This document shows positions 17,362 through 32,176 of a DNA stretch of 41,290 nt, one piece after another. Position numbers and translations under genes: made by a program. Under the pieces are notes generated by a model that searched no databases, was not told the DNA's origin, and saw only the letters and a list, made by a program, of their open reading frames with translations. Source of the DNA: a virus; UHGV virus genome UHGV-0387525; one strand, given 5' to 3'. Numbering within the stretch: position 1 is the first letter of the stretch; each line of letters starts with the position of its first letter.

Positions 17362-20300
17362 CTATTTCATCTGCTCTTCAACTTTATTTAGTAATGGTGA
17401 TATCGCCCACAGATTCTGAAAAGGTAGCATTTTACGGACAGCGTGGGTTTGCTGGCTGTCAAATTCTCCGTTAAGTACACCATTTGCAACCGTCGCGGCA
17501 TCACCGCCAAGATCAAAGGTAGGACCAAGTAAAGCACCAATAGCATTACGACTCTGAAACCTTGATACCGGAGGCGCACCAAACATCGCGCCAAGACCAA
17601 ACCTACCGCCGCTTATGTTCTCAACGGTATTCAGCGGCTCAGAGAGCCAGCCAAGCATTCCGCCCCGGTCGATCCCCTCTTTCACAAGGTTATTCCAGCT
17701 GTAGTCGATATCGCGACCGCTTAACTTCTGTTTCATCATATAGACCATTGAGCCAAGCGCAATCGTGCCAAGCGCACCAAGATAGAATGCAGCATCGCCC
17801 TGCTGGATACCAGATACCAGCACCCTGTTATGCTGTGCGAAGATAAACGTTTTGAACTGCGTGATCATCTTCCAGCCTTCTTTACTAAAAAACAGCGGTG
17901 TATCACCTACGCCAGGCGTTACAATCACTGAGTCTACATCTTTCAGCACTGCAGACTGGAAAATCTCTCTAGCGAAACGGTCATCCCACAGATGACTATG
18001 CCCGGTTAACAGCCCGCCCATATCCTCTCCGTGCTTCCCGAATTGCTCCCCGATTCGGCGCAGAACATCTTCATTGATGCCGACCTGTGCCATCTTCCGC
18101 ATTTCACTTTTGGAGAGCGTGCCACCAGCAGAAACTTGGCGAGCCGCGTCAAGTATCCTCGACTGCACTATCATCCCAGACCATGATTTAAGTGCGCTGT
18201 TCCACTGATTCATCAGCGTCCAGTTACCGAATTTCTGCGTCATCCAGTTCAGACCTCGCTCAGCGGCGCTTCTCCGGCTATAGGGGTCAGTAAGATCCGC
18301 TATAGCCTTTGTACGCGTAGACAGGACATAATCAAGCCCAACTGCCATTTCTCGCAAATCCCTGGTTGCAATTTTCACTGAGTCCATATTTTTAAGCATG
18401 CTTACCATTGGTCCGAGAGATTTTCTCAGGCCATGCTGCATCATCGGTCGCATCAGATCAGTTGCAGCGGAGACAGTCATTCCACCAAGCAAACGGAGGA
18501 AGTTAATATTCCTAGCAACTCGCCCGGCACGAACAAAGAAACTGCGTGGATCTTGAGGTGCACCGTAAGTACCAAGCAGTCGATCACGCATAGCCGTAAT
18601 ATCCCTAATATCAGCCTCCCGTTGCTTCTCAAGAACTGCACGTCGTTTAGGTGTTTTAGCCTCTTTTATTAGCCGGGTATATTCCTCACTAACCTGACGG
18701 ATTTGCTCCCCCATATCTTTACGGCCAAACTGCGCAGTCAGCTCAATTTCTGGTGCCACCTGCCGGAGATAACTTTCCATGATGTAGTTAACATCTGATT
18801 CAAGAAAATCTTCTATACGCTCATCAGGAATAAGCAGCGTTCTGCTTTTAGTGAAACCAGCCCGACCAACGAGTCTCTCTGGGATAATATCGGCTGGTAC
18901 AAGCCCGGAAGGTGCGCCTATTATTTTATTCACGATCTCGTCAGCAGCGTCCTCTGCTTCCTCTCGGGATAGAGGCTCCATCTGCTTCAGTGCTCGCTCG
19001 CGGCTTGCATTCAGCCTTGTGGTTGAATTTGCCCGTTTTTGCAGTCGGCGAAGCTCAGAACGATATTTCCGTGGATTATCCAGCAACTCCATATGGCGCT
19101 GATAGACAGGAAGCTCACTCTTTGCCTGCGCTATATCATCAAGGCGTGTTTTAAGGTCAGAGCTTTCTTTCATCATTCTTGCCTGAAGTTTTTCTGATGA
19201 AGTCTCGGCCAACTCTTTTTCTATTCTTGTAAGACGCGCCTGTGTGTCAGTCTCCTGAGATATAAGCTTATTTCGTTTATCCAGTTCTTCCATGAGTAGA
19301 ATTTTTTTACCAGACCATTTCTCCGCTTCAGCGATTTCACTAGCGAGAGCATCAGCGCGCGGTGCTGATTCCTCTGCAGTTTTTAGCAATGAATTTATCT
19401 TTTCAATTCGCTGACCTGCTTTGTCAGCACCTTTGGCACTAATCCCTTGTATCCAGTTGGCAATTCGCCCTCTGAATTCAGTGCGGTCGGAAAGTATCTT
19501 ATCGAACTTATAAATGCGGGGAAGATAACTCTTCGCCGTCACGACATCGATATCCTCAGGAAGGATCCCCAATTCCTGCATACGGGCTTTTGTGGTCTCA
19601 AAAATGGGGCGGATTCTGGCGGCTGCTTGTGAAACCTCAGGAATATCACTCTGATCACCACGGCGCATAGCCATGCCAACAGCTTCATTGAAATCAATAA
19701 AGTTCATCCTCTTCACGCCGCGGGCGCTGACAGATTTGCTGTACTGCTGGTAAGCATCACGAGTAGCTTCCATCTGCTTATAAAGCATGGCGTCGTATTG
19801 CTTAATCTTAGTCTCGACTGCCGTAAACGTAGCCAACCCCTCATCATTTTTGGCGAAGAAATAGTTATTTTCGGCAAGCTGCTGGTTAATCTGACGGGAG
19901 ACAAGAGATGGTGATTGCGCCAAGCGGCCAGCAGGAGTGACACTCAACGTTTTGTTAGCAAGTCCAAGTCCAGCGAGCTGTTCCTGATCGAGTGTGGTAT
20001 TGAAAACCTGAGCTGCACCAATGCTTTGAGGAGAATCCATACCTCGCAAATGATTACCTACTGAGTTAACCACTGCCTCGCGCGCGCTAGGTCCAGCAAG
20101 TAGCTGTGCACCAGCACCAAGGATCCCACCAACGAGAGCATCAACAACAACGTTCGATACGCTCTCCATCGGTGAGCGAGCTTCCTGAGTGGCCTGTAAT
20201 GCGGCTTCTGATACTCCCCCACCAGCAGCATTCGCCAGGGCAAAACGCCCTGCCGTCTCAGCAATACTTCCTCCACGCGCTACCGCCCCTACAGGGATGA

Positions 20301-20751
20301 ACATTGCAGCCACATTAACCGGGTCTATCATTCCCATTGCTAAGCTTGAAATAGTACCAGCACCACCCATTTCAGATAGATATTCTCTATCTGTTCTTTG
20401 CTTATCGATTCGATGTTTAATTGCCATTGTTTCTTCATGCGAACCGGAGTTGATAAACGAATCTGCAAAATCTTCATAGCCTTTAATATCTGCTGCATCG
20501 TTATCAAATGGGTTATATCCTTCAACCCTGTCAAACTGACTGAAAGGAGCACTGGCAATAAAGCTACCCAGCGTGTTATCTATACGAAATGCTGCTTGTC
20601 TAGACCTTTGAACGCGTTGATCACTGGTAAATGGGTTCACAGCAGAAAGCAAAGAAGGTGTTTCCATATAGAAATTACTGTCATCAGGTGCTGCTATTTG
20701 CTGAATATCCTCGCCAAGCAACTCTTTAGGATCCTGTTCATATATCGGCAT
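17362..20751 (-). CDS. large internal virion/ejection protein (T7 gp16-like by size and position)
   Basis: 1129 aa; Gly/Ala-rich and coiled-coil segments; last gene of virion block. Confidence 0.45.
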   Translation of the reverse strand: MPIYEQDPKELLGEDIQQIAAPDDSNFYMETPSLLSAVNPFTSDQRVQRSRQAAFRIDNTLGSFIASAPFSQFDRVEGYNPFDNDAADIKGYEDFADSFINSGSHEETMAIKHRIDKQRTDREYLSEMGGAGTISSLAMGMIDPVNVAAMFIPVGAVARGGSIAETAGRFALANAAGGGVSEAALQATQEARSPMESVSNVVVDALVGGILGAGAQLLAGPSAREAVVNSVGNHLRGMDSPQSIGAAQVFNTTLDQEQLAGLGLANKTLSVTPAGRLAQSPSLVSRQINQQLAENNYFFAKNDEGLATFTAVETKIKQYDAMLYKQMEATRDAYQQYSKSVSARGVKRMNFIDFNEAVGMAMRRGDQSDIPEVSQAAARIRPIFETTKARMQELGILPEDIDVVTAKSYLPRIYKFDKILSDRTEFRGRIANWIQGISAKGADKAGQRIEKINSLLKTAEESAPRADALASEIAEAEKWSGKKILLMEELDKRNKLISQETDTQARLTRIEKELAETSSEKLQARMMKESSDLKTRLDDIAQAKSELPVYQRHMELLDNPRKYRSELRRLQKRANSTTRLNASRERALKQMEPLSREEAEDAADEIVNKIIGAPSGLVPADIIPERLVGRAGFTKSRTLLIPDERIEDFLESDVNYIMESYLRQVAPEIELTAQFGRKDMGEQIRQVSEEYTRLIKEAKTPKRRAVLEKQREADIRDITAMRDRLLGTYGAPQDPRSFFVRAGRVARNINFLRLLGGMTVSAATDLMRPMMQHGLRKSLGPMVSMLKNMDSVKIATRDLREMAVGLDYVLSTRTKAIADLTDPYSRRSAAERGLNWMTQKFGNWTLMNQWNSALKSWSGMIVQSRILDAARQVSAGGTLSKSEMRKMAQVGINEDVLRRIGEQFGKHGEDMGGLLTGHSHLWDDRFAREIFQSAVLKDVDSVIVTPGVGDTPLFFSKEGWKMITQFKTFIFAQHNRVLVSGIQQGDAAFYLGALGTIALGSMVYMMKQKLSGRDIDYSWNNLVKEGIDRGGMLGWLSEPLNTVENISGGRFGLGAMFGAPPVSRFQSRNAIGALLGPTFDLGGDAATVANGVLNGEFDSQQTHAVRKMLPFQNLWAISPLLNKVEEQMK

Positions 20752-23498
20752 TATTTGCCCCCTGCGTATATATTGCTCGGAAGGTAATTGGCTGAACCAT
20801 AACCGAATGGTTTGGTCAGATCTGGAGGAGTATATCCATCTTTATTGCTGAACTGCGGCAGCGGATTGCCTTCTCTCCGCACTCTAGCCTCATCAACACG
20901 CTGTTGCTGGAACTGAATGGTTTGCCTGTACATTGGAGATGTCAGCTGATCCGGCTTGAAACGAACAGGGAGACCATTTTCTCCAATATAATTTCTCGGT
21001 TCTATCGCTCCGTTTGCGTCAGGCTGTAAAACCATAACAGCATAACTCCTATCCCTTGCCGTAAGGCCATCAGAAACAAGTATTAAGTCCGTATCACTGC
21101 GAGGACCGCCAAAGGATTTTGATTTAAGCTCGCGTTTTTCCTGCTCCCACTGCCCCTGTATCCAGTTACCAGCACCATTATTTACTCCGTACAATGCCTC
21201 AGGTGCATACTTCATAACCTCTGCTTTGCCATTAACTGTAGAAACTCCCCAGGTGGTTCTGATCATGGCATTGGTCATTTTCTCAGCCTGTTCTGCATCG
21301 CCACCTGTCTGTACAAAGTTAGCATCGTAAATTGTCTGGTAATCTCGCTGATAGGCCGCATTTGATTTTCCTGGATCGGTAATATCCGGAGACCACGAAC
21401 CAAAGGAAGTCAGACTGCTGGCGTTATTTTGTGCAGCAGTTGCCCTCGCCGCGACATATTTTTTGTCTCGCATGGCAGTGGAAAGCATCTGTTTCATTCG
21501 GTCATCCTGTTGGAACACCTGGCTGTAAGCCATATCAACAGCCTTATCCTCCGGCACGCCAGCGCGGGAATAATCATAAACCTTGCCGTAAAATGCCATC
21601 GTACTTTTATCAAGTGTTGCCGCTGCCGCCGGATTATTATCGAATAACTGACCGTAGAATTTTGCCATCGGGACAACCAGCGCAGGATCTCTTGATGTTG
21701 CTCCACTGTTAAGCATTGTTTTAACCTGAGTTGGTATCATGCCGCTTTTAGTTGTGACGGTGACCAGTGTATTGATGCTCTGCGGATCAGATATGGAAAA
21801 CGAAGGCGCGATATCCTGCGCGAAATAACGGTCTACCGCTGCCTGATTGTTTTTGTCGTTAGGGTCCAGCGGGAAGTTATTTTGCATTGAAGACACGAAC
21901 CTGTTTCTTCCCTGCTGAATCTCCCACTCCCTATCCATCTCTTTAAATTTGGCCTGCATTTTCTCCCAGCGTTGCTGGTTAGCTGCAAATCCAGGAGCGT
22001 TTGGATCCTGTGGACGTAAACGTTCAAGAATGTCTTGTCGTCCTTCTGGAGTGAGGTCTTTAGCGGCACCAATGACACCTCCATATTGTATCTGCGCCTG
22101 CATATCCTTCCACTTCATAGCGCCAATGCGCGGACCATTGGCCCGGATAAAATCGTCCTCAGAAGGTAACTTCTCAGGTTTCAATCCTTCATCAAGGGCT
22201 GAATATGCATCTTTAACTACGGTGCTAAGCTGGTCCGCATACTGCTGGCGGTACTGATTTCTCAGCTCATTAGCCTGCCTCAATGCCTGTATTTGCATTT
22301 GAGGGCTCATAGCGTCAAATGCCGCATTGCCCGTATAACGCTTAGGTGAATCAAGGTTAGTTAGACCAAGGGCTGCCGAGATACCAGTTTCAAGCTGTTC
22401 GGTGCTATAAGGCATACTGCCATTTTCGTGTTTAATAATCCCAGCACATAAAGCAGCTAGTGTCTTTGGGTTAGAGATATCAAGCTGATCATTCTCCCCA
22501 ACACCAAGCTCACTACACAATGCCCTAATATAAGCATCAGTATTATTACCATCACTAGCCGGAGCATAGCGATTAACAATCTCGCTAACGGTGTCATAGC
22601 CTTGACGCTGGTAAGACAACATATTTTTACCCAACGCGCGGATTCCATGCTCAGGGGTAGCAAACGTTGCAAAACGTCCATCGCTACCGATCTGACCTTC
22701 CCACGGGTTAGATTTGCTCGCTTCAATATTGCCAGGGTTATTATTACGTAAACCACGAGCATCCAATGAATTACCATGTGATATTGCACGACTCACACCA
22801 TCAAGATCCCCTGGCTCTCCATTAACCTGAAGAAACTCGTTGTATTTTTGAGCGATATTTCCTATCCATGCTTGCTGCCCCATTTGTTCCTTGAGCTGAG
22901 TTTTCTGCTGAACACGCCACTCATCAGGAAGCCCATGCGCATCAGCGTATTGATCAATAGATTCAAATCGCTGCTTGGCTAAATCGACAAATGCTTGGTT
23001 ATCGCTATATAGCCCCGCAGACTGAGTGACAGCCAATGCATTTCCTGACAAATACGTTTGATCTTGGAATTGCTGAAACTGCCCAACTTCATATCGACGT
23101 GCCTGATTGTAATAAGACTGCATAGACTGCTGGAGTTGAAAGGATAATTTATTCCTTTCCTCACTTTCAGGAATTGAGCCTAATAATGCCTGAGCCCTTT
23201 CCTGCATATTTTTCATAACAGCGTCACTCTGACCAAGAGCGTTTTTACCCTGTTTAGAAATCAGCCCATTTTCAGGGTTGTTAATCTGGTCATCTGCAAA
23301 TTGGTTAAATTGCAGTAACGCCTCCTGGGCCATAGCAACATTCGCTTTCTGCCTAGCTTCACCATATGCCACCGCATACTGATCTGCGACATTCGCCAGC
23401 ACCTGACCTGCTTGAGGAACATCGAAGGTCTGAAAACCACCGGTTTGCACACCACGACTTTGCACCTGGCGTCCGGATGTAGTAGGAACAACAGGCAT
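20751..23498 (-). CDS. internal virion protein (T7 gp15-like by position), possible muralytic segment
   Basis: 915 aa; segment RGLRNNNPGNI...FATFATPEHGIRALG resembles virion-associated cell-wall hydrolases (unverified). Confidence 0.4.
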   Translation of the reverse strand: MPVVPTTSGRQVQSRGVQTGGFQTFDVPQAGQVLANVADQYAVAYGEARQKANVAMAQEALLQFNQFADDQINNPENGLISKQGKNALGQSDAVMKNMQERAQALLGSIPESEERNKLSFQLQQSMQSYYNQARRYEVGQFQQFQDQTYLSGNALAVTQSAGLYSDNQAFVDLAKQRFESIDQYADAHGLPDEWRVQQKTQLKEQMGQQAWIGNIAQKYNEFLQVNGEPGDLDGVSRAISHGNSLDARGLRNNNPGNIEASKSNPWEGQIGSDGRFATFATPEHGIRALGKNMLSYQRQGYDTVSEIVNRYAPASDGNNTDAYIRALCSELGVGENDQLDISNPKTLAALCAGIIKHENGSMPYSTEQLETGISAALGLTNLDSPKRYTGNAAFDAMSPQMQIQALRQANELRNQYRQQYADQLSTVVKDAYSALDEGLKPEKLPSEDDFIRANGPRIGAMKWKDMQAQIQYGGVIGAAKDLTPEGRQDILERLRPQDPNAPGFAANQQRWEKMQAKFKEMDREWEIQQGRNRFVSSMQNNFPLDPNDKNNQAAVDRYFAQDIAPSFSISDPQSINTLVTVTTKSGMIPTQVKTMLNSGATSRDPALVVPMAKFYGQLFDNNPAAAATLDKSTMAFYGKVYDYSRAGVPEDKAVDMAYSQVFQQDDRMKQMLSTAMRDKKYVAARATAAQNNASSLTSFGSWSPDITDPGKSNAAYQRDYQTIYDANFVQTGGDAEQAEKMTNAMIRTTWGVSTVNGKAEVMKYAPEALYGVNNGAGNWIQGQWEQEKRELKSKSFGGPRSDTDLILVSDGLTARDRSYAVMVLQPDANGAIEPRNYIGENGLPVRFKPDQLTSPMYRQTIQFQQQRVDEARVRREGNPLPQFSNKDGYTPPDLTKPFGYGSANYLPSNIYAGGK

Positions 23499-24073: not shown

Positions 24074-24537
24074 TATTTTCTCTCCATGTGAAATCTGTGG
24101 AAATTAAGACCAAGAGCACCATAAGGCGCGGCTTCTTCAAGCCTGAATCCAAGCCAGTGCAGCCATGCTTTGGCAACATGGTTTCGCTCGTCGACATAGT
24201 TTTCCAGGCGCGGATAAACTGCCAGCATCTGCTGCAATACAGGGCGGCAGTGGCGAAGAAATGTCTTCTGATATTTTTCGATACGGCTGGTTCCGACCAG
24301 CCAGGGCGTACCATTGCCACCGATCATTGACGCCGGAGATACGCCAAACATGGTTACCAGTTCTCCGTTCGCAAATCCTGACCAGGCCATAGTCGCAGTA
24401 CGCAGACCAACACGCAGCGCATCTTCGGTAGTCATCAGTGATACCGCATACAGTTCGTCAATATCAGCCTGACGAACATCCGGCAAAATCATCTGAAGAT
24501 GCTCTTCGGTTGCGGGAATAATTTGAACATCGATCAT
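24073..24537 (-). CDS. internal virion protein (gp13-like by position)
   Basis: 154 aa; translationally coupled within structural operon. Confidence 0.35.
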   Translation of the reverse strand: MIDVQIIPATEEHLQMILPDVRQADIDELYAVSLMTTEDALRVGLRTATMAWSGFANGELVTMFGVSPASMIGGNGTPWLVGTSRIEKYQKTFLRHCRPVLQQMLAVYPRLENYVDERNHVAKAWLHWLGFRLEEAAPYGALGLNFHRFHMERK

Positions 24538-27008
24538 CAGAATCCCCCAACAGTAAGGCGAGGAATAACGGCAAGAACAGACAGCGGCAACGGGTCAAGC
24601 TGACGGATTTTTACACGTTCGTTTTTGCCCCAGTTACTGTCCAGTTTCACTTCTACTTTTCCGGTAGCATCATCAACAGGATCATCGTAGAACTCGAATT
24701 CACGCTGTGGATATTCGTACCATTTGCCGCCGGGCGTAGTCGCCCAGATGCCGCGACTGGCATTCACAACCAGAGTAACGGACGGGATCACCTGTTTTTT
24801 GTCCAGCAGCGTTTCCTGTCCGTTAATGTTGATATCCAGTGTTTCGAATTCAGCAGTTATTGGCAGGCCGATGTGCACAACAGCCCCAGGTGATTCCAGC
24901 GTGACGGCACCTCCGGAAACCACTTTCTGTGGTTCCACGTTCGCATCAGAGAGAATGTTTACGGTCTGGCCTTCAAGATGAGACAGGCCTCCAAATGTCC
25001 GGCGCGCCATCTGCCAGTTCGTGGTAGCCACATTCCTGAGGGATGGTGGGACGTTCCTGTTAGGACGAACCACTACAGCGGTATTGCTGGTTACAGAAAT
25101 AATGTCGCAACGTAATTCTTTTGACACTTCATCGCCAGTATCAGGATCAGTTCCGGTATAAGGGAACTGTAGTTGCGCGCCGACATCACTACTGGTGAAG
25201 TACGCACCACCAGAAACACTGATTGTATATTCCTCGCGGTAATCCCATTCGCCAGAACCACCAGTGATGATCATCGTTCTGTCAGACGTATTTCTTCCAT
25301 CATAGCTAAGGCCAGAATCAACAAAGAAAGCATCTTCATCGCTGGTAAATAAACGGCTGGACAGTCGCTCGATGTATCTCACTGTTTGCCCGTTAACGGT
25401 TCGGTTAACGACGAAATACACCGCATCTTCATTGCCTTCGCTGATACTGCATGTGCTTTCATATTTTCCGGTACTGGATTGTGGTGCCCATGCAAAAACC
25501 TGCTGATCACGCAAATAGGTCATCACCAGTAATTTACCGTCATCACGGATGCAGAAGGCGCTGGAGTAAGGGACTATTGAGAAGCACCAGTCAACAATGC
25601 TGTGCTTCTGAAAAAGATGATTGGCAAGGATAGTAAGGTCGTTCCCCTGATAGCCGTCAACATCGAATGAGTAGGCCAGATCACGGACAACACTGCCTTT
25701 CTCCTGGACGAACAGAGCAATATTCGCCACGGCAATTGGTGGGACATTGCTCGAGCCATTTGATCCCTGAGAGCTGAATGCAAATGATGATGGGGTAAGC
25801 ACTTTGTTCTGGTCGCCAGTGATGACGTACTCACCTCCGGAAGTCAGCGCCACCAGCGAACCAACATCAATCAGGTGGCGGATCTCATTAACCTGACGCC
25901 CGGCATAGGTGTAGATAATTCTGTCGTCATCCTGCGTAGGATTGCTTTTGCCAAAATCCTTATAATCCCCGGTACGGCTGGCCCAGATAGTCTGAGGAAA
26001 CGCAGTCGATGCGGCGAAGTAAAGACGTTGTTGATAATAAACAACAGTGCCAGGATAACCATTAACACTGTTCCAGGCATATTTAGCCCATTTATAGCTG
26101 GCATTATCCTCGCCAACTACCTGCGAAGGGATATAGGAAATCACCTCGGCAGTTGCAGTAGTTCCATTTGCAGCAGAGATACGGGCAATGCCAAAACCAC
26201 TGTGCAGATACTCCCACTCAATGCCGGTATCATCATCACCGGATCCGCCCCAGCCATCCCATGATGTGCCTTCTGTATGCGAAGGGCGCAAAGTGCCTGT
26301 TTTGCCTACTGTAACGGCGCGATAGTAGTTACTGTCTGCACGGCGAATATCGCCAATTGACGTACTCTTACTGGTTTCCCATACCGGCACAGAATCCACT
26401 GCAGGCTGTTCCAGATAGAACAATTTGCCTACCTGCTCCGCGCCAAAAATAGAGGCGCTTGCCGTTAACGTAATTGTCCCGGTGCTGGCGCTGGCATAAA
26501 CCGTCACTGACTCGTCAATATTGATATCTTCAAATGGTCCGTTCTTCGTTACCACATCAACCAGTTGCCAGTTGTCATGCGCATAGCGACGCAACTCTTT
26601 CGGCGGGTATGCCGGATGAACAAGCGTAAGCACGTCGGCGCTTTGCGTGAATTTAATTCGGAACAGATCGGCTTCAGTATATGGCGTGGCAATTTCATAA
26701 ATAACATTGCTGCTGTTCAGCACCAACGCACCATCTTTGATAACGCGCATGTACTGGTGTCCGAACTCCAGAGCATAGGTCTGAACCGTCGAGAACTGGA
26801 ACGGGATCAGGCGGCATTTCCGATTTGGGTATTTGGCGGCACCGACAAAACGCGTACCTGGTCGATTCTCAACGCCGCCATACTGCCGCACGATAAAGTT
26901 ATCGCACTTGCGCAATGCCACCTGGTACTTCGCCATGTCAATACGCCCGTACAACGACGGTCCAATCTCACCACCGGCAAAGCTGGGCTGGATCCAACTG
27001 ATAGCCAT
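24537..27008 (-). CDS. tail tubular protein B / nozzle (T7 gp12-like)
   Basis: 823 aa; size, position after gp11-like gene, N-terminal GGEIGPSLYGR pattern. Confidence 0.55.
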   Translation of the reverse strand: MAISWIQPSFAGGEIGPSLYGRIDMAKYQVALRKCDNFIVRQYGGVENRPGTRFVGAAKYPNRKCRLIPFQFSTVQTYALEFGHQYMRVIKDGALVLNSSNVIYEIATPYTEADLFRIKFTQSADVLTLVHPAYPPKELRRYAHDNWQLVDVVTKNGPFEDINIDESVTVYASASTGTITLTASASIFGAEQVGKLFYLEQPAVDSVPVWETSKSTSIGDIRRADSNYYRAVTVGKTGTLRPSHTEGTSWDGWGGSGDDDTGIEWEYLHSGFGIARISAANGTTATAEVISYIPSQVVGEDNASYKWAKYAWNSVNGYPGTVVYYQQRLYFAASTAFPQTIWASRTGDYKDFGKSNPTQDDDRIIYTYAGRQVNEIRHLIDVGSLVALTSGGEYVITGDQNKVLTPSSFAFSSQGSNGSSNVPPIAVANIALFVQEKGSVVRDLAYSFDVDGYQGNDLTILANHLFQKHSIVDWCFSIVPYSSAFCIRDDGKLLVMTYLRDQQVFAWAPQSSTGKYESTCSISEGNEDAVYFVVNRTVNGQTVRYIERLSSRLFTSDEDAFFVDSGLSYDGRNTSDRTMIITGGSGEWDYREEYTISVSGGAYFTSSDVGAQLQFPYTGTDPDTGDEVSKELRCDIISVTSNTAVVVRPNRNVPPSLRNVATTNWQMARRTFGGLSHLEGQTVNILSDANVEPQKVVSGGAVTLESPGAVVHIGLPITAEFETLDININGQETLLDKKQVIPSVTLVVNASRGIWATTPGGKWYEYPQREFEFYDDPVDDATGKVEVKLDSNWGKNERVKIRQLDPLPLSVLAVIPRLTVGGF

Positions 27009-27613
27009 CAGGACAACCTCGCAATGGTAAACTCGTCAACCGGTGGCTGTGGTTCCTGTGATTCATTCTGGCTATGCGAGCCAGCACTAAGAATCACGCG
27101 ATTGTACATATTGAGAGCAAATGTACCGAGATCCGCATTCCCAGTCAGCGCCATGTTAATGGCTGCCGCAAGACGCCAGGCCAGCGCCTCCATAAAAATG
27201 GCATCAAACATGTTTACATCTGAAACGCGAGAGACATACTTGAGCCATGCCTGCGGCTGGTCTGTGTAGATCAATTTTCCTGTTCCGTTGGTGTCTGCAC
27301 CAACTTCGTACTGAACGCGCATTGCTGCTGTTGGATTGCGTACACCAGGAAGCATAATTTCAGTAATGCGCAGACAATCTGACGGGTACTGGTACGCATA
27401 TTCCCAGTCAGGCGGTGGATTGCTCGTATCTGCAAGCGCCACGCGTTTGGTAGCAAAGTTCCAGTCAAAATCAGAAAGCACAGCATCACGGCAGGCCTCA
27501 AAGTGCAGCGAACATTCCCCCGCTTCCTTGCTGGCTTCCGTCAGGCTGTTAATGCTGCGGCTGTTGCCAATATTGGACAGCGCACGATTGCAGATCTCTA
27601 CTACAGAGGCCAT
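27008..27613 (-). CDS. tail tubular protein A / adaptor (T7 gp11-like)
   Basis: 201 aa; ALSNIGNSRSINSLTE resembles gp11 N-terminal ILASIGEPPVSTLEG. Confidence 0.55.
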   Translation of the reverse strand: MASVVEICNRALSNIGNSRSINSLTEASKEAGECSLHFEACRDAVLSDFDWNFATKRVALADTSNPPPDWEYAYQYPSDCLRITEIMLPGVRNPTAAMRVQYEVGADTNGTGKLIYTDQPQAWLKYVSRVSDVNMFDAIFMEALAWRLAAAINMALTGNADLGTFALNMYNRVILSAGSHSQNESQEPQPPVDEFTIARLS

Positions 27614-27669
27614 AAGTTTCTATACTCCTGCAATAAAGGGGCCGAAGCCCCTTGTCTGATTCGCGAGGC

Positions 27670-28014
27670 TTACACGCCCAGTTCTTTACGCTTATCTGCG
27701 ATCTTCTCGCGTAGCGTTTCGGCTTTGGCGTTATGGTGTGGCTTCTCGTTAAAGAGCAATTCGTACTCTTCACGGAGCTTATCCAGTTCACCATCATCTG
27801 ACACATCGTTGATGATTTTGGTGCTGGTTGCTGCCATTGACACCTTTCCTGCAACTTTTGCTTTTGCCTGTCTGGCTGCATCGTTAACAGGTTCCAGTGC
27901 GCTACCAGGCTCACCTTCGTATTCGATTTCTGCCCCCTCCGGCCACAGAGTGTTATGGATATGAGAGAGGCGCAGAACGCGGTATCTTGGTTTCTCACCT
28001 GACATCGATATCAC
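27670..28014 (-). CDS. hypothetical virion-module protein
   Basis: 114 aa ORF between capsid and tail genes. Confidence 0.35.
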   Translation of the reverse strand: MISMSGEKPRYRVLRLSHIHNTLWPEGAEIEYEGEPGSALEPVNDAARQAKAKVAGKVSMAATSTKIINDVSDDGELDKLREEYELLFNEKPHHNAKAETLREKIADKRKELGV

Positions 28015-28015
28015 C

Positions 28016-28453
28016 TTAACCAGTTACTTTTGAGCGGATCGGGTACGGCGTATTGGCATCAACATCCAGACTGATACCCGCAGTGAATTTGCCAGCCGTT
28101 AGTGGGCCAGTTGCGACGGAGTAGTTAACACGCAGATATCGCTGAACACCGGCAGGCACCTTTGCAGAAACAACTCGTTTACCTGCTGTCAGGGCGGTCT
28201 TTGCCAGTGCGCCACTATCATAAATAGTGGTCCATGAGCTGTTATTCTCACTCGTCTGCAACTGGATGTTTACAGTTGCATCACCGCTTGCCGCGGCGGC
28301 TGCGTTAACCAGCGCCCAAAACTCAAGCGGGTAACCCACGCCGATATCACGACGTTTTCCGTCAATTGGACCGAGATCGATTACGTCAGTAGAAGCCGCG
28401 GTATTCGTAACCGCCTGAGCTTCGGAGAACATCAACAGTTTGTCGGTGATCAT
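28016..28453 (-). CDS. hypothetical virion-module protein (possible minor capsid/decoration)
   Basis: 145 aa ORF immediately downstream of major capsid gene. Confidence 0.35.
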   Translation of the reverse strand: MITDKLLMFSEAQAVTNTAASTDVIDLGPIDGKRRDIGVGYPLEFWALVNAAAAASGDATVNIQLQTSENNSSWTTIYDSGALAKTALTAGKRVVSAKVPAGVQRYLRVNYSVATGPLTAGKFTAGISLDVDANTPYPIRSKVTG

Positions 28454-28504: not shown

Positions 28505-29497
28505 TTACACCACGCGGGCTTCTGTTTCCAGAAGCGCATCAGTTTCACGGATTGGTACACCACGGAATGAAGTCCACCACTCGCCTTCAGTCTCTTTTAC
28601 GCTGATAGCCAGAGATGTTTTCTCCAGAGATTGCAGATCAAGAGCCTGGCCTACAGTGCGGTTCATGTAGAACACCGGGCGGCCCATGCCACGGTTTGGA
28701 ATGCGATGCAGTGCCTTAACCATCAACTTGGCAATATTTGCGGCAGAGGATGGTTCTGAAAGATTGCTGACATCGATGTTTGCAATGCGAACAACATAAC
28801 GCCAGTCACGCAGAGCAAGTCCGTTGTCCCATTTATAATGGGTGCGATAACCTTCGTACTTGCCGCCATTAGCATCTTCCAGTGTCACCTGGCCTTTATC
28901 TTCCATCTGGATGCCAGCCTTCTTCCCTTTCGGGAAGATGCCATGCACGGTGTTTTCGCCCCACACCACTAACCAGATTGAGGTGTTATCTGTACCCGTG
29001 CCACCAGCATCAATGATGTTCTGAGCATTACCCGCAGACAGGCTGGAATAGCGGGAGGACAGTCCCATAAACTGCTGAGGGTTAACGCTGGAATCACCAT
29101 AAAACAGCGTCTGCGCCATCTGCTGATTCATCGCTTCAATAAATGCGCGGTCTTCAGACAGGCGGAATTCAGCGGTATTGCCGTTCAGATCAGCCAGTGA
29201 CTTATCGACTTCAGCATAGGTTTCCAGCATGCCAACGGAATCGGTTACCTGCACTGTGGTTGATTTGCTTGGCTGTACGCCATAGTTCAGCAAACGCCAG
29301 GTAGCTGAAGGTAAACCAGAACGAATGGTGGTTCGGTGTCCGGTAGGAAGGTTCCCTTCGACAAAAGGCATATCCTGAAGGATCGGGTTAGTTTGACCGA
29401 GAAGCTCGATAATCTTATCGACTTTCCCGTTTGGATCGACGCGCTTACCCCAGTCAGCCAGCGTCAGCGCAGTTAAGCCTTTAACAGCCATTGTCAT
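28505..29497 (-). CDS. major capsid protein
   Basis: 330 aa; position after scaffold; strong AGAGAGGAA RBS. Confidence 0.65.
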   Translation of the reverse strand: MTMAVKGLTALTLADWGKRVDPNGKVDKIIELLGQTNPILQDMPFVEGNLPTGHRTTIRSGLPSATWRLLNYGVQPSKSTTVQVTDSVGMLETYAEVDKSLADLNGNTAEFRLSEDRAFIEAMNQQMAQTLFYGDSSVNPQQFMGLSSRYSSLSAGNAQNIIDAGGTGTDNTSIWLVVWGENTVHGIFPKGKKAGIQMEDKGQVTLEDANGGKYEGYRTHYKWDNGLALRDWRYVVRIANIDVSNLSEPSSAANIAKLMVKALHRIPNRGMGRPVFYMNRTVGQALDLQSLEKTSLAISVKETEGEWWTSFRGVPIRETDALLETEARVV

Positions 29498-29505
29498 TTC
29501 CTCTC

Positions 29506-30207
29506 TTATTTGCCATAGAGCACTTCGGCCGCACTACGCTGGCCTTCATTACCACCGGTGACCATGCCATCTTCAGACATCGCCTTTCCGATTTTCACGA
29601 ACGTTTTGACCAGATCAGGGTGATTACCCAGCCCGGTGGTGTTCAGATATTCTTTGAGTTCAGGTGTCCCGAACTGGTCAAGCGCACGCTGTGCGGCGCT
29701 AAGGTTAGAAATCAACTTGTCGCCACCGATTTCTTTGTCAGCTTTTACATCAGCAGCCCACTGCTCGGTTGTTTTCTGCCAGGCTTCTGCCTGGCGCTGC
29801 TGCACACCTGCCAGAATCTTCGGATAAGCATCAACCAGCTTTTGCGCTTGCTCGTTGGTCAGGTTTAGTTCTCGCGCCACCGGCTCGAATTCCTTCAACG
29901 CTTCTGTATCCAGCTCTACGCCTTCGGCAGCCTGAAACTCGTACTTCTCAGGCGCACCCTCTGGTTTATCGCCGCCCTTTTTTTCATCCTGCTTATCGTT
30001 TTCAGGCTTTTTGTCATCAGCAGGTTTATCGCCATCAGCAACAGGTTGTGGCTTATCACCTTCCTGTTGTGATTGATCACCAACTGGAGCAGGGTTATCA
30101 CCTGCAGGCGCTGACGGTTCTGACGCAGCAGGAGCTGCTCCACCATCGACTGGTTGCTCATTGCAAAGACGGCGATACAGCAAACGCTCAAATAAATTCA
30201 TGATCAC
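29506..30207 (-). CDS. scaffolding protein
   Basis: acidic, low-complexity, Pro/Asp/Lys-rich N-half with helical C-half; between portal and capsid; start may be ATG 30201. Confidence 0.55.
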   Translation of the reverse strand: MIMNLFERLLYRRLCNEQPVDGGAAPAASEPSAPAGDNPAPVGDQSQQEGDKPQPVADGDKPADDKKPENDKQDEKKGGDKPEGAPEKYEFQAAEGVELDTEALKEFEPVARELNLTNEQAQKLVDAYPKILAGVQQRQAEAWQKTTEQWAADVKADKEIGGDKLISNLSAAQRALDQFGTPELKEYLNTTGLGNHPDLVKTFVKIGKAMSEDGMVTGGNEGQRSAAEVLYGK

Positions 30208-30500
30208 TCCTGTTCACTGGCCTCTTTGGCCATCTTCAAATACTGTTCAGGGCAATGCGCCATAACGCGCTGAAACAGTTCCAGCGCCAGATTGCGTTGC
30301 CCCTCATTAAATGCCATTGCCATAGCGTCCATCGGTGAGATAGCGGAAAACACACGGCCTTTCTCCAGCACCGACCAGACAACGCGACGCCCCTGTTCAC
30401 TGCTCATGACAAAGCGAATGTCATCAATTTCACGCTGTGCCATGTCACGTTGCTTACGGGCGTTTTCTTCTTTCAGTTGATCGTCTTCGTAATCTGTCAT
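30204..30500 (-). CDS. hypothetical head-assembly protein
   Basis: 98 aa, charged; coupled between portal and scaffold. Confidence 0.35.
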   Translation of the reverse strand: MTDYEDDQLKEENARKQRDMAQREIDDIRFVMSSEQGRRVVWSVLEKGRVFSAISPMDAMAMAFNEGQRNLALELFQRVMAHCPEQYLKMAKEASEQE

Positions 30501-32176
30501 TGTGATTGCCCACCCTGACCACTAACTGCATTCGCCATAGCTGACAAAACACTCGGATCCGAAGTTTTAGCTTCGCTTAGCGTCTTGGCACCCTGTGCCG
30601 CCGCCATCCCCATCGCCATCATTTGTTGCTGCTGTTGTTGCTGTGCCCGTTGCTGGCGAGCCTGCTCAACCTGTTCCTGCGGAACAATGACGGTTGGAGA
30701 CACTCCGGACATATCAGCGAATGCATCGATCGCCTGATCAACGTTGAGTTTGTCGAGAGCTTCTGGTTTCGCTTGCGCAAGTTGACCAATGAAGTTAACC
30801 GTGGACGCCAGACTGGACAGGCCGATAGACTTCTGCGCCTGAGCCATGACGGAAATGTATTCGACCTTCAGGGGCATGCCTTCCATCGCGTCAGGCGGTG
30901 GCGGCAGCATGTTTTTACGCACCATCATCGAGAAAGAGCGATCAATGAGAGGATTAAGACATTCGTCGTTCAGGCGCTCCAGAACCGGCCCCAACATCAG
31001 AAGTTTTTCTTCTTTCATTTCGATCACCGCTTCCACAGGCATCGAGCGGGTATTGATGTTCTGCAACATCATGAACAGATCGACAAAGTAGGCGCTGTTA
31101 ATGATTTGACGAGTGTCCTGAATGTCTGCCACCAAATCTGCTGTACTGGGGTTAACCAGATAAGCAGGCCTGAAACCATCCTGACCAGTAATCTGATCGA
31201 TATACGTGATGTCGCCAGGAAGAAGGGAGGCACGCTGATTCTTGAGGGAATTCGGAGCAACCATCGGCGGATTGGTGGCTTTATCAATCAACTGCGACTT
31301 GCGCTTCTGGAGAAGCTGCAATGCCTTAACAGGTCCAAGCGCCAGCATACCCGGGCATGATGATCCATAAACATCTTCGCCGTTAACTTCCCAGCGCGGG
31401 GCCATAATTGGAAACTCATCGAATCCGGACTCACGCAACAACTTGTCGTTATCGCCACCAACCTCGTAATAAACCGATTTGAATGGCTTGTTCTTGCTAT
31501 CCAGCTTCGATGTATCGCGGTCAATGTTCGGGTAAACCGAATGCATCACTTCAATCCACTTCTCGTAGGTTCCGCTTTCCCACATGCTTTTTACGGATTC
31601 GCTGACGTTATTTAGCCCGAACTCCTGAACAAGCTGACGAACAGTCATAGAGAACTTGCGAAAACAGGTGTCCACACTGCCACGAGGTGAGTTAGCCAGG
31701 TAGTAACTGCCTATCGGGAATGGCATTGTGCGAATGATGTCCTCGTCATCCTCCAGCACTGCCATTGCACCAGTGCTGTATGTGCCGAGGCTTCCGTATA
31801 ACTGCGGCAGCGACTGATAGAGATTCGACTTATTGAACATATCGTTCATGCGGTTCTGCACCGCCTCAAGCCACAACTTAACAGGGCCATAATCCATCAT
31901 TTCAGGATCTGGCGTAGCCAGGCGAAACCACGGACGCGCGGGGCTTGTGATGCCTGACATCATGCCGCTGGCGAGAGTGCGCGCCGCCATAGTCCCGGTC
32001 GAATCAATAATGCGTGTATTGCGTCGATCGTTACGGTTAACCTCAGAAGCCAGAAAGCGGGAACCACGCGGGTTGATGTAATCACTCAACTCGCGCCAGT
32101 GCGGCTCGAACGACTGACGCTCGCTTTCAAGTTGTGCGAACTGTTTGTTCAATCGCTCTTTAGTTGTTTCCGCCAT
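30497..32176 (-). CDS. portal protein (T7 gp8-like)
   Basis: 559 aa; Gln/Ala/Met-rich C-terminal tail resembles T7 gp8; follows terminase. Confidence 0.8.
   Translation of the reverse strand: MAETTKERLNKQFAQLESERQSFEPHWRELSDYINPRGSRFLASEVNRNDRRNTRIIDSTGTMAARTLASGMMSGITSPARPWFRLATPDPEMMDYGPVKLWLEAVQNRMNDMFNKSNLYQSLPQLYGSLGTYSTGAMAVLEDDEDIIRTMPFPIGSYYLANSPRGSVDTCFRKFSMTVRQLVQEFGLNNVSESVKSMWESGTYEKWIEVMHSVYPNIDRDTSKLDSKNKPFKSVYYEVGGDNDKLLRESGFDEFPIMAPRWEVNGEDVYGSSCPGMLALGPVKALQLLQKRKSQLIDKATNPPMVAPNSLKNQRASLLPGDITYIDQITGQDGFRPAYLVNPSTADLVADIQDTRQIINSAYFVDLFMMLQNINTRSMPVEAVIEMKEEKLLMLGPVLERLNDECLNPLIDRSFSMMVRKNMLPPPPDAMEGMPLKVEYISVMAQAQKSIGLSSLASTVNFIGQLAQAKPEALDKLNVDQAIDAFADMSGVSPTVIVPQEQVEQARQQRAQQQQQQQMMAMGMAAAQGAKTLSEAKTSDPSVLSAMANAVSGQGGQSQ

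What the first reader, a model, noticed from the sequence alone, without database searches (positions are those of the whole stretch)
17362..32176. T7-like virion module embedded in a lambdoid temperate genome
Gene order and sizes (portal 559 aa, scaffold, capsid 330 aa, gp11-like 201 aa, gp12-like 823 aa, then 154, 191, 915 and 1129 aa) track T7 genes 8-16, while replication, recombination, immunity and integration genes are lambdoid and no phage RNA polymerase is seen. I could not place the phage in a known genus from memory (epsilon15-like phages are one possibility).
Basis: partly seen in the sequence, partly recalled or inferred. Interest (0 to 1): 0.45.

Follow-up and report, generated by a model that had tools for sequence, protein, structure and literature searches.

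The report
Known epsilon15/phiV10-type phage virion module
The region is the ordinary head, tail and DNA-ejection gene block of an epsilon15/phiV10-type (Uetakevirus) temperate short-tailed phage of E. coli, whose distant kinship to the phage T7 tail is real but was described years ago, so the finding is correct in outline and not new.

Summary
The whole window is a genome-sized Uetakevirus (epsilon15/phiV10 group). The 14.8-kb module is 97.8% identical in DNA to Escherichia phage EC.W1-9. From portal through the 191-aa protein it is 95-100% identical in protein to phiV10. It occurs as a prophage in about 10% of complete E. coli genomes.

The T7 resemblance is deep homology. Profile matches tie the portal, the 154-aa, 191-aa and 1129-aa proteins to T7 gp8, gp13, gp14 and gp16. 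A confident AlphaFold model of the 201-aa protein matches the T7 gp11 adaptor. The 823-aa protein is 88% identical to epsilon15 gp12, a published T7 gp12 homologue.

The capsid protein is not T7-type. It belongs to the epsilon15/BPP-1 family and comes with a Bbp16-type cement protein. The "scaffold" call is unproven.

Minor points: the last two ejection genes are an alternative two-gene cassette closest to Klebsiella prophages. The epsilon15 gp10-type capsid staple gene is absent. The tailspike is a K1 endosialidase.

The parts
35081..35755 (-). Small terminase subunit.
   Evidence: Pfam Terminase_2, 1.4e-29. Syntenic with phiV10 p01.
33609..35084 (-).
   Evidence: No Pfam hit. It lies under the 97-98% megablast matches to genes annotated as terminase large subunit in EC.W1-9, phiV10 and PAS61. 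It has the same size (491 aa) and position as phiV10 p02.
30497..32176 (-). Portal protein (559 aa), T7 gp8 family.
   Evidence: Pfam PF12236 Head-tail_con, 5.6e-187. Matches phrog_332 and also T7's phrog_449 at 2e-23; T7 gp8 reciprocally hits phrog_332 at 1.5e-31. 98.9% identical to phiV10 p07. PDB 8ck0_A portal, 1.3e-178.
30204..30500 (-). 98-aa protein of unknown role, homologue of epsilon15 gp5. T7 has no counterpart.
   Evidence: 99% identical to phiV10 p08 and 66% to epsilon15 gp5. phrog_528, function unknown.
29506..30207 (-). Probable scaffolding protein (231 aa from the ATG at 30201). Databases label it 'protease' or 'endoprotease'.
   Evidence: 97% identical to phiV10 p09 and 75% to epsilon15 gp6. 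phrog_458 'protease', but no Pfam or NCBIfam peptidase family. The N-terminal ~90 residues are acidic, Pro/Ala-rich and of low complexity; the C-terminal half is predicted all-helical. The single-sequence AF2 model has pLDDT 44.7, so it cannot be used for fold search. 'Scaffold' is inferred from position and composition, not shown.
28505..29497 (-). Major capsid protein of the epsilon15 gp7 / BPP-1 Bbp17 family (HK97-like fold). It is not the T7 gp10 family.
   Evidence: Pfam PF20911 GP7, 2.7e-149. NCBIfam MCP_gp7_epsi_15, 1e-123. PDB: 3j4u_A (BPP-1) 9.8e-129, 3j40_A (epsilon15 gp7) 2.8e-85. 100% identical to phiV10 p10. T7 gp10 falls in other PHROGs.
28016..28453 (-). Capsid cement/decoration protein (145 aa, Bbp16 family).
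   Evidence: Pfam PF21190 Bbp16, 3.5e-47. PDB: 3j4u_H 'cementing protein' 4.1e-26, 8cjz_B 'Capsid Decoration Protein' 1.3e-22. 97% identical to phiV10 p11.
27670..28014 (-). 111-114-aa protein of unknown role, homologue of epsilon15 gp9.
   Evidence: 100% identical to phiV10 p12 and 40% to epsilon15 gp9. phrog_590, function unknown.
27631..27653 (-). GC-rich hairpin followed by a T-run, lying between the head genes and the tail genes. It is a terminator-like element.
   Evidence: The sequence AAGGGGCTTCGGCCCCTTTATTG is unique in the window. A rho-independent terminator is annotated at the same position in epsilon15, after gp9. The consensus scan did not list it, so function is inferred.
27008..27613 (-). 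Tail adaptor / tail tubular protein A (201 aa), homologue of T7 gp11.
   Evidence: AF2 model from 50 homologues: pLDDT 89.2, pTM 0.81. Foldseek against PDB: 8ck1_E (phage Carin-1) 5.8e-17; 9efk (LME-1) 4.3e-9; T7 gp11 7box_N 2.9e-6, prob 1.00, TM 0.60 over the full length; also KP32, Kp7, P-SCSP1u and A4 adaptors. 99.5% identical to phiV10 p14 and 85% to epsilon15 gp11. Sequence profiles alone do not reach T7 gp11.
24537..27008 (-). Tail nozzle / tail tubular protein B (823 aa), homologue of T7 gp12.
   Evidence: PDB: 8ck1_A 'Tail Nozzle' 5.1e-216, 9efk_M 2.2e-15. 88% identical to epsilon15 gp12. Epsilon15 gp12 matches T7 gp12 in HMM-HMM comparison at E<1e-10 (PMC4819975). 98.7% identical to phiV10 p15.
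24073..24537 (-). Internal virion protein A (154 aa), T7 gp13 family.
   Evidence: phrog_308 at 9.2e-63. T7 gp13 is in the same PHROG at 1.1e-42. 99% identical to phiV10 p16.
23498..24073 (-). Internal virion (ejection) protein B (191 aa), T7 gp14 family.
   Evidence: Pfam PF24072 T7_gp14, 4.4e-8, 33.7 bits against a cutoff of 27. Residues 1-170 are 95% identical to phiV10 p17; the C-terminal ~20 residues differ, which marks the right edge of the cassette swap.
20751..23498 (-). Large ejection protein in the T7 gp15 position (915 aa), with an internal cell-wall-degrading domain at about residues 247-399.
   Evidence: phrog_1044, plus phrog_873 and phrog_7182 'tail injection transglycosylase'. 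PDB: 9vvp_L Gp29 N-terminal domain 3.9e-35, 7q47_A endolysin 2.8e-15. Residues 1-496 are 45% identical to phiV10 p18 and 44% to epsilon15 gp15; the rest has no match. It shares no family with T7 gp15.
17362..20751 (-). Largest ejection protein (1129 aa), T7 gp16 family but without gp16's N-terminal transglycosylase domain.
   Evidence: phrog_342 at 9.1e-235, matching profile positions 192-1227 of 1235. T7 gp16 is in the same PHROG, matching positions 4-1227. Pairwise BLASTP to T7 gp16 is not significant. No BLASTP match to phiV10 p19/p20 or epsilon15 gp16/gp17. About 81-82% DNA identity to Klebsiella prophages.
9269..12388 (-). Tailspike (1039 aa): an endosialidase with a C-terminal intramolecular chaperone. 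It is the receptor-binding part of the virion and is encoded apart from the main block.
   Evidence: Pfam End_beta_propel 1.7e-232, End_tail_spike 8.4e-78, End_beta_barrel, End_N_terminal and Peptidase_S74. The same domain set is described for Uetakevirus vB_EcoP_ZX5 on a K1 host (PMC9782041). ZX5 matches window 47-14710 at 98.7%.

Best explanation
The region is the late (virion) operon of an epsilon15/phiV10-type temperate podophage (genus Uetakevirus as now constituted), read leftward on the minus strand by the host RNA polymerase.

Inferred mechanism, from homologues whose structures are solved:
- The terminase packs DNA through a T7-gp8-type portal.
- The capsid is built from an epsilon15/BPP-1-type HK97-fold protein on a probable scaffold (the 233-aa protein) and is reinforced by a Bbp16-type cement protein.
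- A gp11-type adaptor ring and a gp12-type nozzle close the portal. Together they form the short tail hub that carries endosialidase tailspikes.
- The 154-, 191-, 915- and 1129-aa proteins are packaged inside the head as an internal core. At infection they are ejected to build a channel across the cell envelope, and the lytic domain of the 915-aa protein cuts the cell wall.

The likeness to T7 genes 8-16 is ancient shared ancestry of the podovirus tail and ejection apparatus, not a recent graft of a T7 module. The head genes (capsid protein, cement protein) come from a different lineage from T7's.

Within this known type, the genome carries an alternative two-gene version of the last ejection genes, closest to Klebsiella prophages. 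It also lacks the epsilon15 gp10-type capsid staple gene.

Shown here: identity of the genes, their families, and their relation to phiV10, epsilon15 and T7. Inferred: assembly order, packaging of the internal proteins, and the scaffold role.
For: Identity with known phages:
- 97.8% DNA identity over 100% of the module to phage EC.W1-9, and 98% over about 58% to phiV10, TL-2011b, ZX5, PAS61 and others.
- Proteins from portal to the 191-aa protein are 95-100% identical to phiV10 p07-p17 and 36-88% identical to epsilon15 gp4-gp14.
- Gene order is the same as in the annotated phiV10 and epsilon15 records, including the early and lysogeny genes.
- The module is present in 565 of 5426 complete E. 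coli genomes, 117 of them with at least 80% coverage. There are 485 relatives in IMG/VR.

Homology to T7, tested here:
- Portal: PF12236 and reciprocal PHROG hits.
- The 154-aa protein and T7 gp13 share phrog_308. The 191-aa protein passes the Pfam T7_gp14 cutoff. The 1129-aa protein and T7 gp16 share phrog_342.
- Adaptor AF2 model (pLDDT 89) against T7 gp11: Foldseek 2.9e-6, TM 0.60.
- The nozzle is 88% identical to epsilon15 gp12, whose homology to T7 gp12 is published, as are the homologies of epsilon15 gp13, gp14 and gp17 to the T7 internal proteins (PMC4819975).

Non-T7 head: Pfam GP7, NCBIfam MCP_gp7_epsi_15, PDB 3j4u/3j40, and the Bbp16 cement protein.

Temperate, lambdoid backbone. Epsilon15 is reported to display a T7-like internal core stack (PMC8954989).
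Against: - Whole-genome similarity to classified Uetakevirus species is only 56-57% (phiV10, PAS61) by a VIRIDIC-like calculation, below the usual 70% genus guideline. However, epsilon15 against phiV10, two species of the genus, gives only about 42% on the same measure.
- The 915- and 1129-aa genes are not phiV10-like.
- The 915-aa protein could not be tied to T7 gp15 by any test, as in the literature for epsilon15.
- The scaffold assignment rests on position and composition only.
- No particle, proteome or expression data exist for this exact genome.
Confidence: 0.95

Rival explanations
1. A recent chimera: a virion module taken from a lytic T7-like phage (Autographiviridae) and grafted into a lambdoid prophage.
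For: The gene order and sizes parallel T7 genes 8-16. Several proteins share families with T7 proteins.
Against: - Similarity to T7 is visible only through profiles or structure. BLASTP of the 1129-aa protein against gp16 is not significant. The adaptor is 13% identical to gp11.
- The capsid protein, cement protein and the 233-aa protein are in different families from T7 gp10 and gp9.
- The same module with the same temperate backbone is found in epsilon15, phiV10, Tyrion and Klebsiella prophages. Related tail proteins occur in Bordetella BPP-1 and Burkholderia BcepC6B. The combination is therefore old and stable.
Confidence: 0.02
2. A P22-like (Lederbergvirus-type) virion module, the other common short-tailed temperate phage type with lambdoid early genes.
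For: It is a temperate podophage with lambdoid early genes and a tailspike. The P22 tail and ejection proteins belong to the same very broad homology group (PMC4819975).
Against: - Portal, capsid, adaptor and nozzle all match epsilon15/phiV10/BPP-1/Carin-1 proteins, not P22 proteins.
- Foldseek hits of the adaptor model to P22 gp4 are not significant (E 0.45-1.0, TM 0.32-0.34), against 2.9e-6 for T7 gp11.
Confidence: 0.01
3. A defective or cryptic prophage remnant whose virion genes are no longer functional.
For: The module is very common as a prophage. This genome lacks the gp10-type staple gene that most relatives carry.
Against: - All virion ORFs are intact and full-length relative to phiV10.
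- The window is genome-sized (41.3 kb) and not cut at the attachment site.
- Its closest relative, EC.W1-9, has the same cassette and the same missing staple gene, and is deposited as a complete genome of a phage from sewage water.
Confidence: 0.03

Closest known systems
Escherichia phage phiV10 and close relatives (TL-2011b, PAS61, ZX5, O157 typing phages 9 and 10, EC.W1-9); genus Uetakevirus
   Same: Same gene order across the whole genome. Portal, 98-aa protein, 233-aa protein, capsid, cement, adaptor, nozzle, and the 154- and 191-aa proteins are 95-100% identical in protein to phiV10. EC.W1-9 matches the whole module at 97.8% DNA identity. ZX5 shares the endosialidase tailspike and the guaA integration site.
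   Different: The last ejection genes are a two-gene cassette (915 + 1129 aa) instead of phiV10's three genes (837 + 600 + 824 aa). Only the first ~500 residues of the 915-aa protein are recognisably related, at 45%. The gp10-type staple gene (phiV10 p13) is absent. Tailspike and accessory (moron) genes differ. Overall intergenomic similarity is 57% to phiV10 and 73% to EC.W1-9.
Salmonella phage epsilon15 (type member; virion studied by cryo-EM)
   Same: Same module order, gp4 to gp14. Portal 80%, adaptor 85%, nozzle 88% and gp14 homologue 77% identical. Same temperate backbone.
   Different: The capsid protein is only 43% identical and is closer to Bordetella BPP-1's. There is no gp10 staple. 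The ejection cassette has two genes instead of gp15/gp16/gp17. The tailspike is an endosialidase rather than an O-antigen-specific spike. Epsilon15 lacks the tRNA-Arg.
Phage T7 genes 8-16 (Autographiviridae)
   Same: Same order: portal, head genes, adaptor (gp11), nozzle (gp12), then four internal proteins (gp13-16). Homology is supported here for gp8, gp11, gp13, gp14 and gp16, and by the literature for gp12. A hairpin sits between the head and tail genes where T7 has its terminator T-phi.
   Different: No phage RNA polymerase and a temperate lifestyle. The capsid protein and the 233-aa protein are in other families. A cement protein and two small extra genes are present. The lytic domain sits inside the gp15-position protein rather than at the N-terminus of gp16. 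The virion carries tailspikes rather than gp17 fibres. Sequence identity is around 10-15%.
Bordetella phage BPP-1, phage Carin-1 (PDB 8cjz/8ck0/8ck1) and Legionella LME-1 phage (PDB 9efk)
   Same: Solved structures of the same protein families: capsid and cement (3j4u; 8cjz), portal (8ck0), adaptor and nozzle (8ck1; 9efk).
   Different: Different hosts and genomes; protein identity is roughly 20-45% for the proteins where it was measured. BPP-1 carries a diversity-generating retroelement (PMC3863775). No reverse-transcriptase hit appeared among the window ORFs scanned against Pfam, but small ORFs were not all scanned.

Membership tests
Uetakevirus (epsilon15/phiV10-type temperate podophages) | Orthologous virion module in the order portal, gp5, gp6, capsid, cement, gp9, adaptor, nozzle, internal proteins | tested here: met
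   95-100% amino-acid identity to phiV10 p07-p17 and 36-88% to epsilon15 gp4-gp14, in the same order. DNA is 98% identical to phiV10 over that stretch.
Uetakevirus (epsilon15/phiV10-type temperate podophages) | Capsid protein of the epsilon15 gp7 / BPP-1 topology family | tested here: met
   Pfam GP7 2.7e-149, NCBIfam MCP_gp7_epsi_15 1e-123, PDB 3j4u_A and 3j40_A.
Uetakevirus (epsilon15/phiV10-type temperate podophages) | Temperate backbone syntenic with phiV10/epsilon15: P4-type integrase, HTH repressor, RecE/RecT, DnaT-like plus lambda-P replication genes, and a holin/GH19 endolysin/spanin lysis cassette | tested here: met
   Pfam hits. Same order as in the annotated phiV10, epsilon15, EC.W1-9 and PAS61 records.
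Uetakevirus (epsilon15/phiV10-type temperate podophages) | ICTV working guideline: about 70% or more nucleotide similarity over the whole genome to members of the genus | tested here: inconclusive
   The VIRIDIC-like score is 57.2% to phiV10, 56.1% to PAS61 and 72.8% to the unclassified EC.W1-9. However, epsilon15 against phiV10, two species of the genus, scores only about 42% over 81% of epsilon15. The genus as it stands does not meet the guideline internally, so the window lies well inside its present span.
Uetakevirus (epsilon15/phiV10-type temperate podophages) | Podovirus morphology with six tailspikes and an internal core | not testable with these tools
   Needs electron microscopy. Inferred only from orthology to epsilon15 (PMC8954989).
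T7-type podovirus tail and ejection apparatus (the 'transient tail homology group' of Hardies et al. 2016), a broad structural kinship rather than a taxon | Portal of the T7 gp8 family | tested here: met
   PF12236 5.6e-187. Reciprocal hits to phrog_332 and phrog_449.
T7-type podovirus tail and ejection apparatus | Adaptor homologous to T7 gp11 | tested here: met
   AF2 model with pLDDT 89. Foldseek to 7box_N (T7 gp11) 2.9e-6, prob 1.00, TM 0.60, plus adaptors of more than ten other T7-like phages. Sequence-only tests failed.
T7-type podovirus tail and ejection apparatus | Nozzle homologous to T7 gp12 | tested here: inconclusive
   Not compared with T7 gp12 directly. Indirect support: 88% identical to epsilon15 gp12, for which an HMM-HMM match to T7 gp12 at E<1e-10 is published. 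PDB relatives are named 'Tail Nozzle'.
T7-type podovirus tail and ejection apparatus | Internal proteins homologous to T7 gp13, gp14 and gp16, downstream of the nozzle gene | tested here: met
   The 154-aa protein and gp13 share phrog_308. The 191-aa protein matches Pfam T7_gp14 at 33.7 bits, above the cutoff of 27. The 1129-aa protein and gp16 share phrog_342.
T7-type podovirus tail and ejection apparatus | Internal protein homologous to T7 gp15 | tested here: not met
   The 915-aa protein and T7 gp15 share no PHROG or Pfam family. The literature also could not confirm a gp15 homologue in the epsilon15 group. Only the position corresponds.
Autographiviridae (T7-like phages proper) | Phage-encoded single-subunit RNA polymerase | tested here: not met
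   Every ORF of 400 aa or more is otherwise assigned: integrase, tailspike, terminase, portal, nozzle and two ejection proteins. There is no RNA-polymerase family hit.
Autographiviridae (T7-like phages proper) | T7 gp10-type capsid protein and gp9-type scaffold; lytic lifestyle | tested here: not met
   Capsid and 233-aa proteins are in different families from T7 gp10 and gp9. Integrase, repressor and attP are present.

The most novel reading that the evidence does not exclude
Phages with essentially the same nozzle (at least 99% identical) differ in two ways that seem interchangeable. They carry either a two-gene or a three-gene ejection cassette, and they either have or lack the gp10-type capsid staple gene.

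The most novel reading not excluded has two parts. First, the staple is dispensable in the phiV10 lineage because the Bbp16-type protein is the working cement. Second, the two-gene cassette, which includes a T7-gp16-family protein and is closest to Klebsiella prophages, is a functionally distinct ejection machine swapped in as a unit to suit a different cell envelope.

This would be a modest point of phage structural biology, not a new kind of system.
Probability: 0.25. Interest if true: 0.3.

Novelty: already known. Interest (0 to 1): 0.08.

Why it matters
It matters little as a discovery. The architecture (T7-related tail and ejection genes, an epsilon15/BPP-1-type head, a lambdoid temperate backbone and no phage RNA polymerase) has been described for epsilon15 and phiV10 since the 2000s, and its relation to T7 was worked out in 2016.

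The practical value is correct annotation. This is a K1-capsule-specific (endosialidase) Uetakevirus of a type common as a prophage in E. coli, including chicken and human isolates such as APEC O18. Several of its genes carry uninformative or probably wrong database labels, for example 'protease', 'DUF919' and 'head protein'.

The natural variants seen here could guide structural work. These are presence or absence of the capsid staple gene, and two alternative ejection cassettes behind an identical tail. They could help establish which capsid and ejection parts are essential.

Tried and rejected
- Sequence-only tests of adaptor against T7 gp11 failed. An HMM of 50 homologues against PDB reached only Carin-1 and LME-1. 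hhalign of that profile against T7 gp11 gave probability 0.1. Structure prediction plus Foldseek was needed.
- BLASTP of the 1129-aa protein against T7 gp16 was not significant. Only shared PHROG membership links them. phmmer of the 1129- and 191-aa proteins against PDB found nothing useful.
- Scaffold versus protease for the 233-aa protein is unresolved. The single-sequence AlphaFold model had pLDDT 44.7 and was not used for a fold search. Pfam and NCBIfam give no peptidase family.
- A paper search for PDB codes 8CK1/8CK0/8CJZ found no relevant paper. The entry title, obtained through Foldseek, identified phage Carin-1.
- PADLOC found no known defence family in the low-GC accessory genes.
- Rejected readings: recent T7-lambda chimera, P22-like module, defective remnant (see the rival explanations).
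- Loci fetched by accession (L002, L003) were not available to scripts. They had to be fetched again through hit ids.

Full report
**Observation.** Three small ORFs inside the block were not mentioned: 98 aa at 30204-30500, 145 aa at 28016-28453, and 111-114 aa at 27670-28014. The terminase genes (33609-35755) and the tailspike gene (9269-12388) belong to the same virion function but lie outside the stated range. These are real genes. Each has strong matches to curated or clustered families, and the DNA is nearly identical to sequenced phages.

**What it is.** Megablast of 17362-32176 against 50,697 phage records gave one full-length match, Escherichia phage EC.W1-9, at 97.8% identity over 100% of the query. 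It also gave about 98% identity over the right-hand 58% to phiV10, TL-2011b, vB_EcoP_ZX5, vB_EcoP_PAS61, phiv142-3 and O157 typing phages 9 and 10. Weaker matches were found to Enterobacter phage Tyrion, Klebsiella prophages and Salmonella phage epsilon15. phiV10, epsilon15, SPN1S and PAS61 are the species of genus Uetakevirus.

At protein level, the portal through the 191-aa protein are 95-100% identical to phiV10 p07-p17 and 36-88% identical to epsilon15 gp4-gp14. The rest of the window has the same order as the annotated phiV10, epsilon15, EC.W1-9 and PAS61 genomes. That order comprises:
- repressor, RecE/RecT-type recombination genes, methylase and integrase;
- a lysis cassette;
- tailspike and antirepressor;
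- the virion operon and terminase;
- Ea22/Eae-type early genes, with lambda-P-family and DnaT-like replication genes.

The module occurs in 565 of 5426 complete E. coli genomes, 117 of them with at least 80% coverage. There are 485 relatives in IMG/VR, and the best 80 have nozzle proteins at least 99% identical. The window is therefore a complete-genome-sized member of a very common, well-characterised temperate podophage group.

**Is the T7 likeness real?** Yes for the portal, tail and most internal proteins, as deep homology.
- *Portal:* it is in Pfam PF12236, the T7 gp8 family, at 5.6e-187. The window portal and T7 gp8 hit each other's PHROGs.
- *154-aa protein:* it shares phrog_308 with T7 gp13.
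- *191-aa protein:* it passes the Pfam T7_gp14 threshold.
- *1129-aa protein:* it shares phrog_342 with T7 gp16 and aligns to profile positions 192-1227, that is, without gp16's N-terminal transglycosylase domain. Pairwise BLASTP is not significant.
- *201-aa protein:* sequence profiles did not reach T7 gp11. An AlphaFold model built from 50 homologues (pLDDT 89.2) matched the adaptor of phage Carin-1 (5.8e-17), LME-1 (4.3e-9) and T7 gp11 (7box_N, 2.9e-6, probability 1.00, TM 0.60, full length). It also matched adaptors of KP32, Kp7/Kp9, P-SCSP1u, A4, PhiM1 and HRP29. P22 gp4 was not significant.
- *823-aa protein:* it matches chains deposited as 'Tail Nozzle'. It is 88% identical to epsilon15 gp12.

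Hardies et al. 2016 reported a strong HMM-HMM match of epsilon15 gp12 to T7 gp12. They also assigned epsilon15 gp13, gp14 and gp17 as homologues of T7 internal proteins A, B and D, and could not confirm a gp15 homologue (PMC4819975). The RefSeq epsilon15 record already notes an HHpred match of gp11 to T7 tail tubular protein A.

**Where the T7 analogy fails.**
- *Capsid protein:* it belongs to the epsilon15 gp7 / BPP-1 Bbp17 family (Pfam GP7, NCBIfam MCP_gp7_epsi_15, PDB 3j4u and 3j40). T7 gp10 is in other PHROGs.
- *Cement protein:* the capsid protein is followed by a Bbp16-type cement protein, which T7 lacks.
- *233-aa 'scaffold':* it shares no family with T7 gp9. Databases call it 'protease'. 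I found no peptidase family. Its sequence has a long acidic, proline-rich, low-complexity N-terminus and a helical C-terminal half, which fits a scaffolding protein. The only structure model was too poor to use (pLDDT 44.7), so this stays an inference.
- *915-aa protein:* it shares nothing detectable with T7 gp15. It carries an internal muralytic domain at about residues 247-399 (PDB 9vvp_L 3.9e-35, 7q47_A 2.8e-15), the activity that T7 places on gp16.
- *RNA polymerase:* none is encoded. All ORFs of 400 aa or more are otherwise assigned.

**How it most likely works.** This is inferred from the solved relatives.
1. Host RNA polymerase reads the operon leftward from the terminase genes.
2. The terminase packs DNA through the portal into a capsid assembled on the probable scaffold and reinforced by the cement protein.
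3. The adaptor and nozzle close the portal and carry the endosialidase tailspikes.
4. The four internal proteins are stored as a core on the portal. Epsilon15 is reported to show a T7-like core stack (PMC8954989).
5. At infection the internal proteins are ejected to form the trans-envelope conduit, and the 915-aa protein's lytic domain opens the cell wall.

A GC-rich hairpin with a T-run at 27631-27653 separates the head genes from the tail genes. Epsilon15 has an annotated terminator at that position, and T7 has T-phi there. This may lower tail-gene expression relative to head genes, which is inference.

**What is particular to this genome.**
- *Ejection-gene cassette.* The match to phiV10 ends inside the 191-aa gene. 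The stretch from about 16505 to about 23590 is instead 81-82% identical to Klebsiella prophages. It holds the C-terminal tip of the 191-aa protein, the 915- and 1129-aa genes, and a 283-aa gene. Only residues 1-496 of the 915-aa protein resemble phiV10 p18, at 45% identity. The 1129- and 283-aa proteins have no BLASTP match to phiV10 p19-p21. Of the 80 IMG/VR loci with a nozzle at least 99% identical, 64 have enough downstream DNA to score. About 41 of these carry a three-gene cassette (837/600/824 or 873/565/849 aa). About 23 carry a two-gene cassette (915/1129, 905/1004 or 902/1006 aa).
- *Missing staple gene.* The homologue of the epsilon15 gp10 capsid staple is phiV10 p13, which matches PDB 3j40_N at 5.8e-21. 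It is cleanly absent between 27613 and 27670. It is also absent in EC.W1-9 and in 17 of the 80 loci, independently of cassette type.

Both features are polymorphisms within the known group, not new systems.

**Classification caveat.** A VIRIDIC-like calculation gives 72.8% similarity to EC.W1-9, 57.2% to phiV10 and 56.1% to PAS61. phiV10 against PAS61 gives 78.2%. This is below the 70% genus guideline with respect to classified species. However, epsilon15 against phiV10, which share the genus, scores only about 42%. I therefore file the window with the epsilon15/phiV10 group as it is currently constituted, probably as a separate species.

**Verdict.** The finding is already known and of low interest.

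Noticed in passing
window 27613-27670 (compare L004 16022-16345, phiV10 p13): The gene for the epsilon15 gp10-type capsid 'staple' protein is cleanly absent. Its phiV10 homologue is p13, which matches PDB 3j40_N at 5.8e-21. The Bbp16-type cement gene is kept. The same absence occurs in phage EC.W1-9, apparently in one of the twelve listed best-matching E. coli prophages (DETEC-S566; single aligned piece equal to the query length, not inspected directly), and in 17 of 80 IMG/VR loci with a nozzle at least 99% identical. This suggests the staple is dispensable in this lineage.
   Followed up: partly
window ~16505-23590: The last ejection genes are an alternative two-gene cassette (915 + 1129 aa, followed by a 283-aa gene), closest to Klebsiella prophages at 81-82% DNA identity. 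phiV10 has three genes here (837/600/824 aa). Both cassette classes occur behind nozzles at least 99% identical: about 23 two-gene loci against about 41 three-gene loci of the 64 scorable.
   Followed up: partly
window 9269-12388 (-): The tailspike is an endosialidase (polysialic-acid / K1-capsule depolymerase) with a C-terminal S74 chaperone domain. This is already described for Uetakevirus vB_EcoP_ZX5 on a K1 host. Similar prophages are present in strains such as APEC O18.
   Followed up: yes
window 32825-32901 (+), hairpin 32945-32980 (+): A tRNA-Arg (anticodon UCU) lies antisense to the late operon, between the portal and terminase genes, and is followed by a terminator-like hairpin. It is conserved in EC.W1-9, phiV10 and PAS61 but is not annotated there; in phiV10 it overlaps the 'hypothetical protein' p04. 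Epsilon15 lacks it.
   Followed up: partly
window 13757-13832 and 13857-13942 (+), upstream of 13990-14685 (+): Rfam finds an isrK Hfq-binding RNA (77.9 bits) and a C4 antisense RNA (77.7 bits) directly upstream of the Bro-N antirepressor gene. This points to P1/P7-style antisense-RNA control of the antirepressor.
   Followed up: no
window 7037-7054, next to integrase 5590-6846 (-): The attachment site holds the last codons of host guaA (ATTGAGTGGGAATGA = IEWE-stop, on the minus strand). Many prophage matches break at window position 7037. [quoted passage not shown]
   Followed up: yes
window 15008-15871 (+), 15888-16400 (+), 16509-17360 (-): A low-GC island (0.34-0.37) holds three accessory genes: a 287-aa protein with three N-terminal membrane helices, a 170-aa membrane-anchored protein, and a 283-aa cysteine-rich protein with a signal peptide. 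None has a Pfam or PADLOC hit, and all fall in PHROGs of unknown function. They are candidates for superinfection exclusion or lysogenic conversion. Only one complete E. coli genome (GPEC1186) carries all three together.
   Followed up: partly
window 28505-29497 (-): The capsid protein is mosaic with respect to the type phage. It is only 43% identical to epsilon15 gp7 and scores better against Bordetella BPP-1's capsid protein (PDB 3j4u_A 9.8e-129, against 3j40_A 2.8e-85). By contrast the portal, adaptor and nozzle are 80-88% identical to epsilon15.
   Followed up: partly
window 29506-30207 (-): The database label 'protease' or 'putative endoprotease STM2005' for this gene appears to be a legacy annotation. 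No peptidase family matches, and the composition is scaffold-like.
   Followed up: partly
window 12864-13592 (-): A 242-aa protein has an N-terminal membrane helix and repeated C-terminal CxxC zinc-finger-like units. These units match Lar-like and endonuclease-VII-like PHROGs only weakly. Function is unknown.
   Followed up: no
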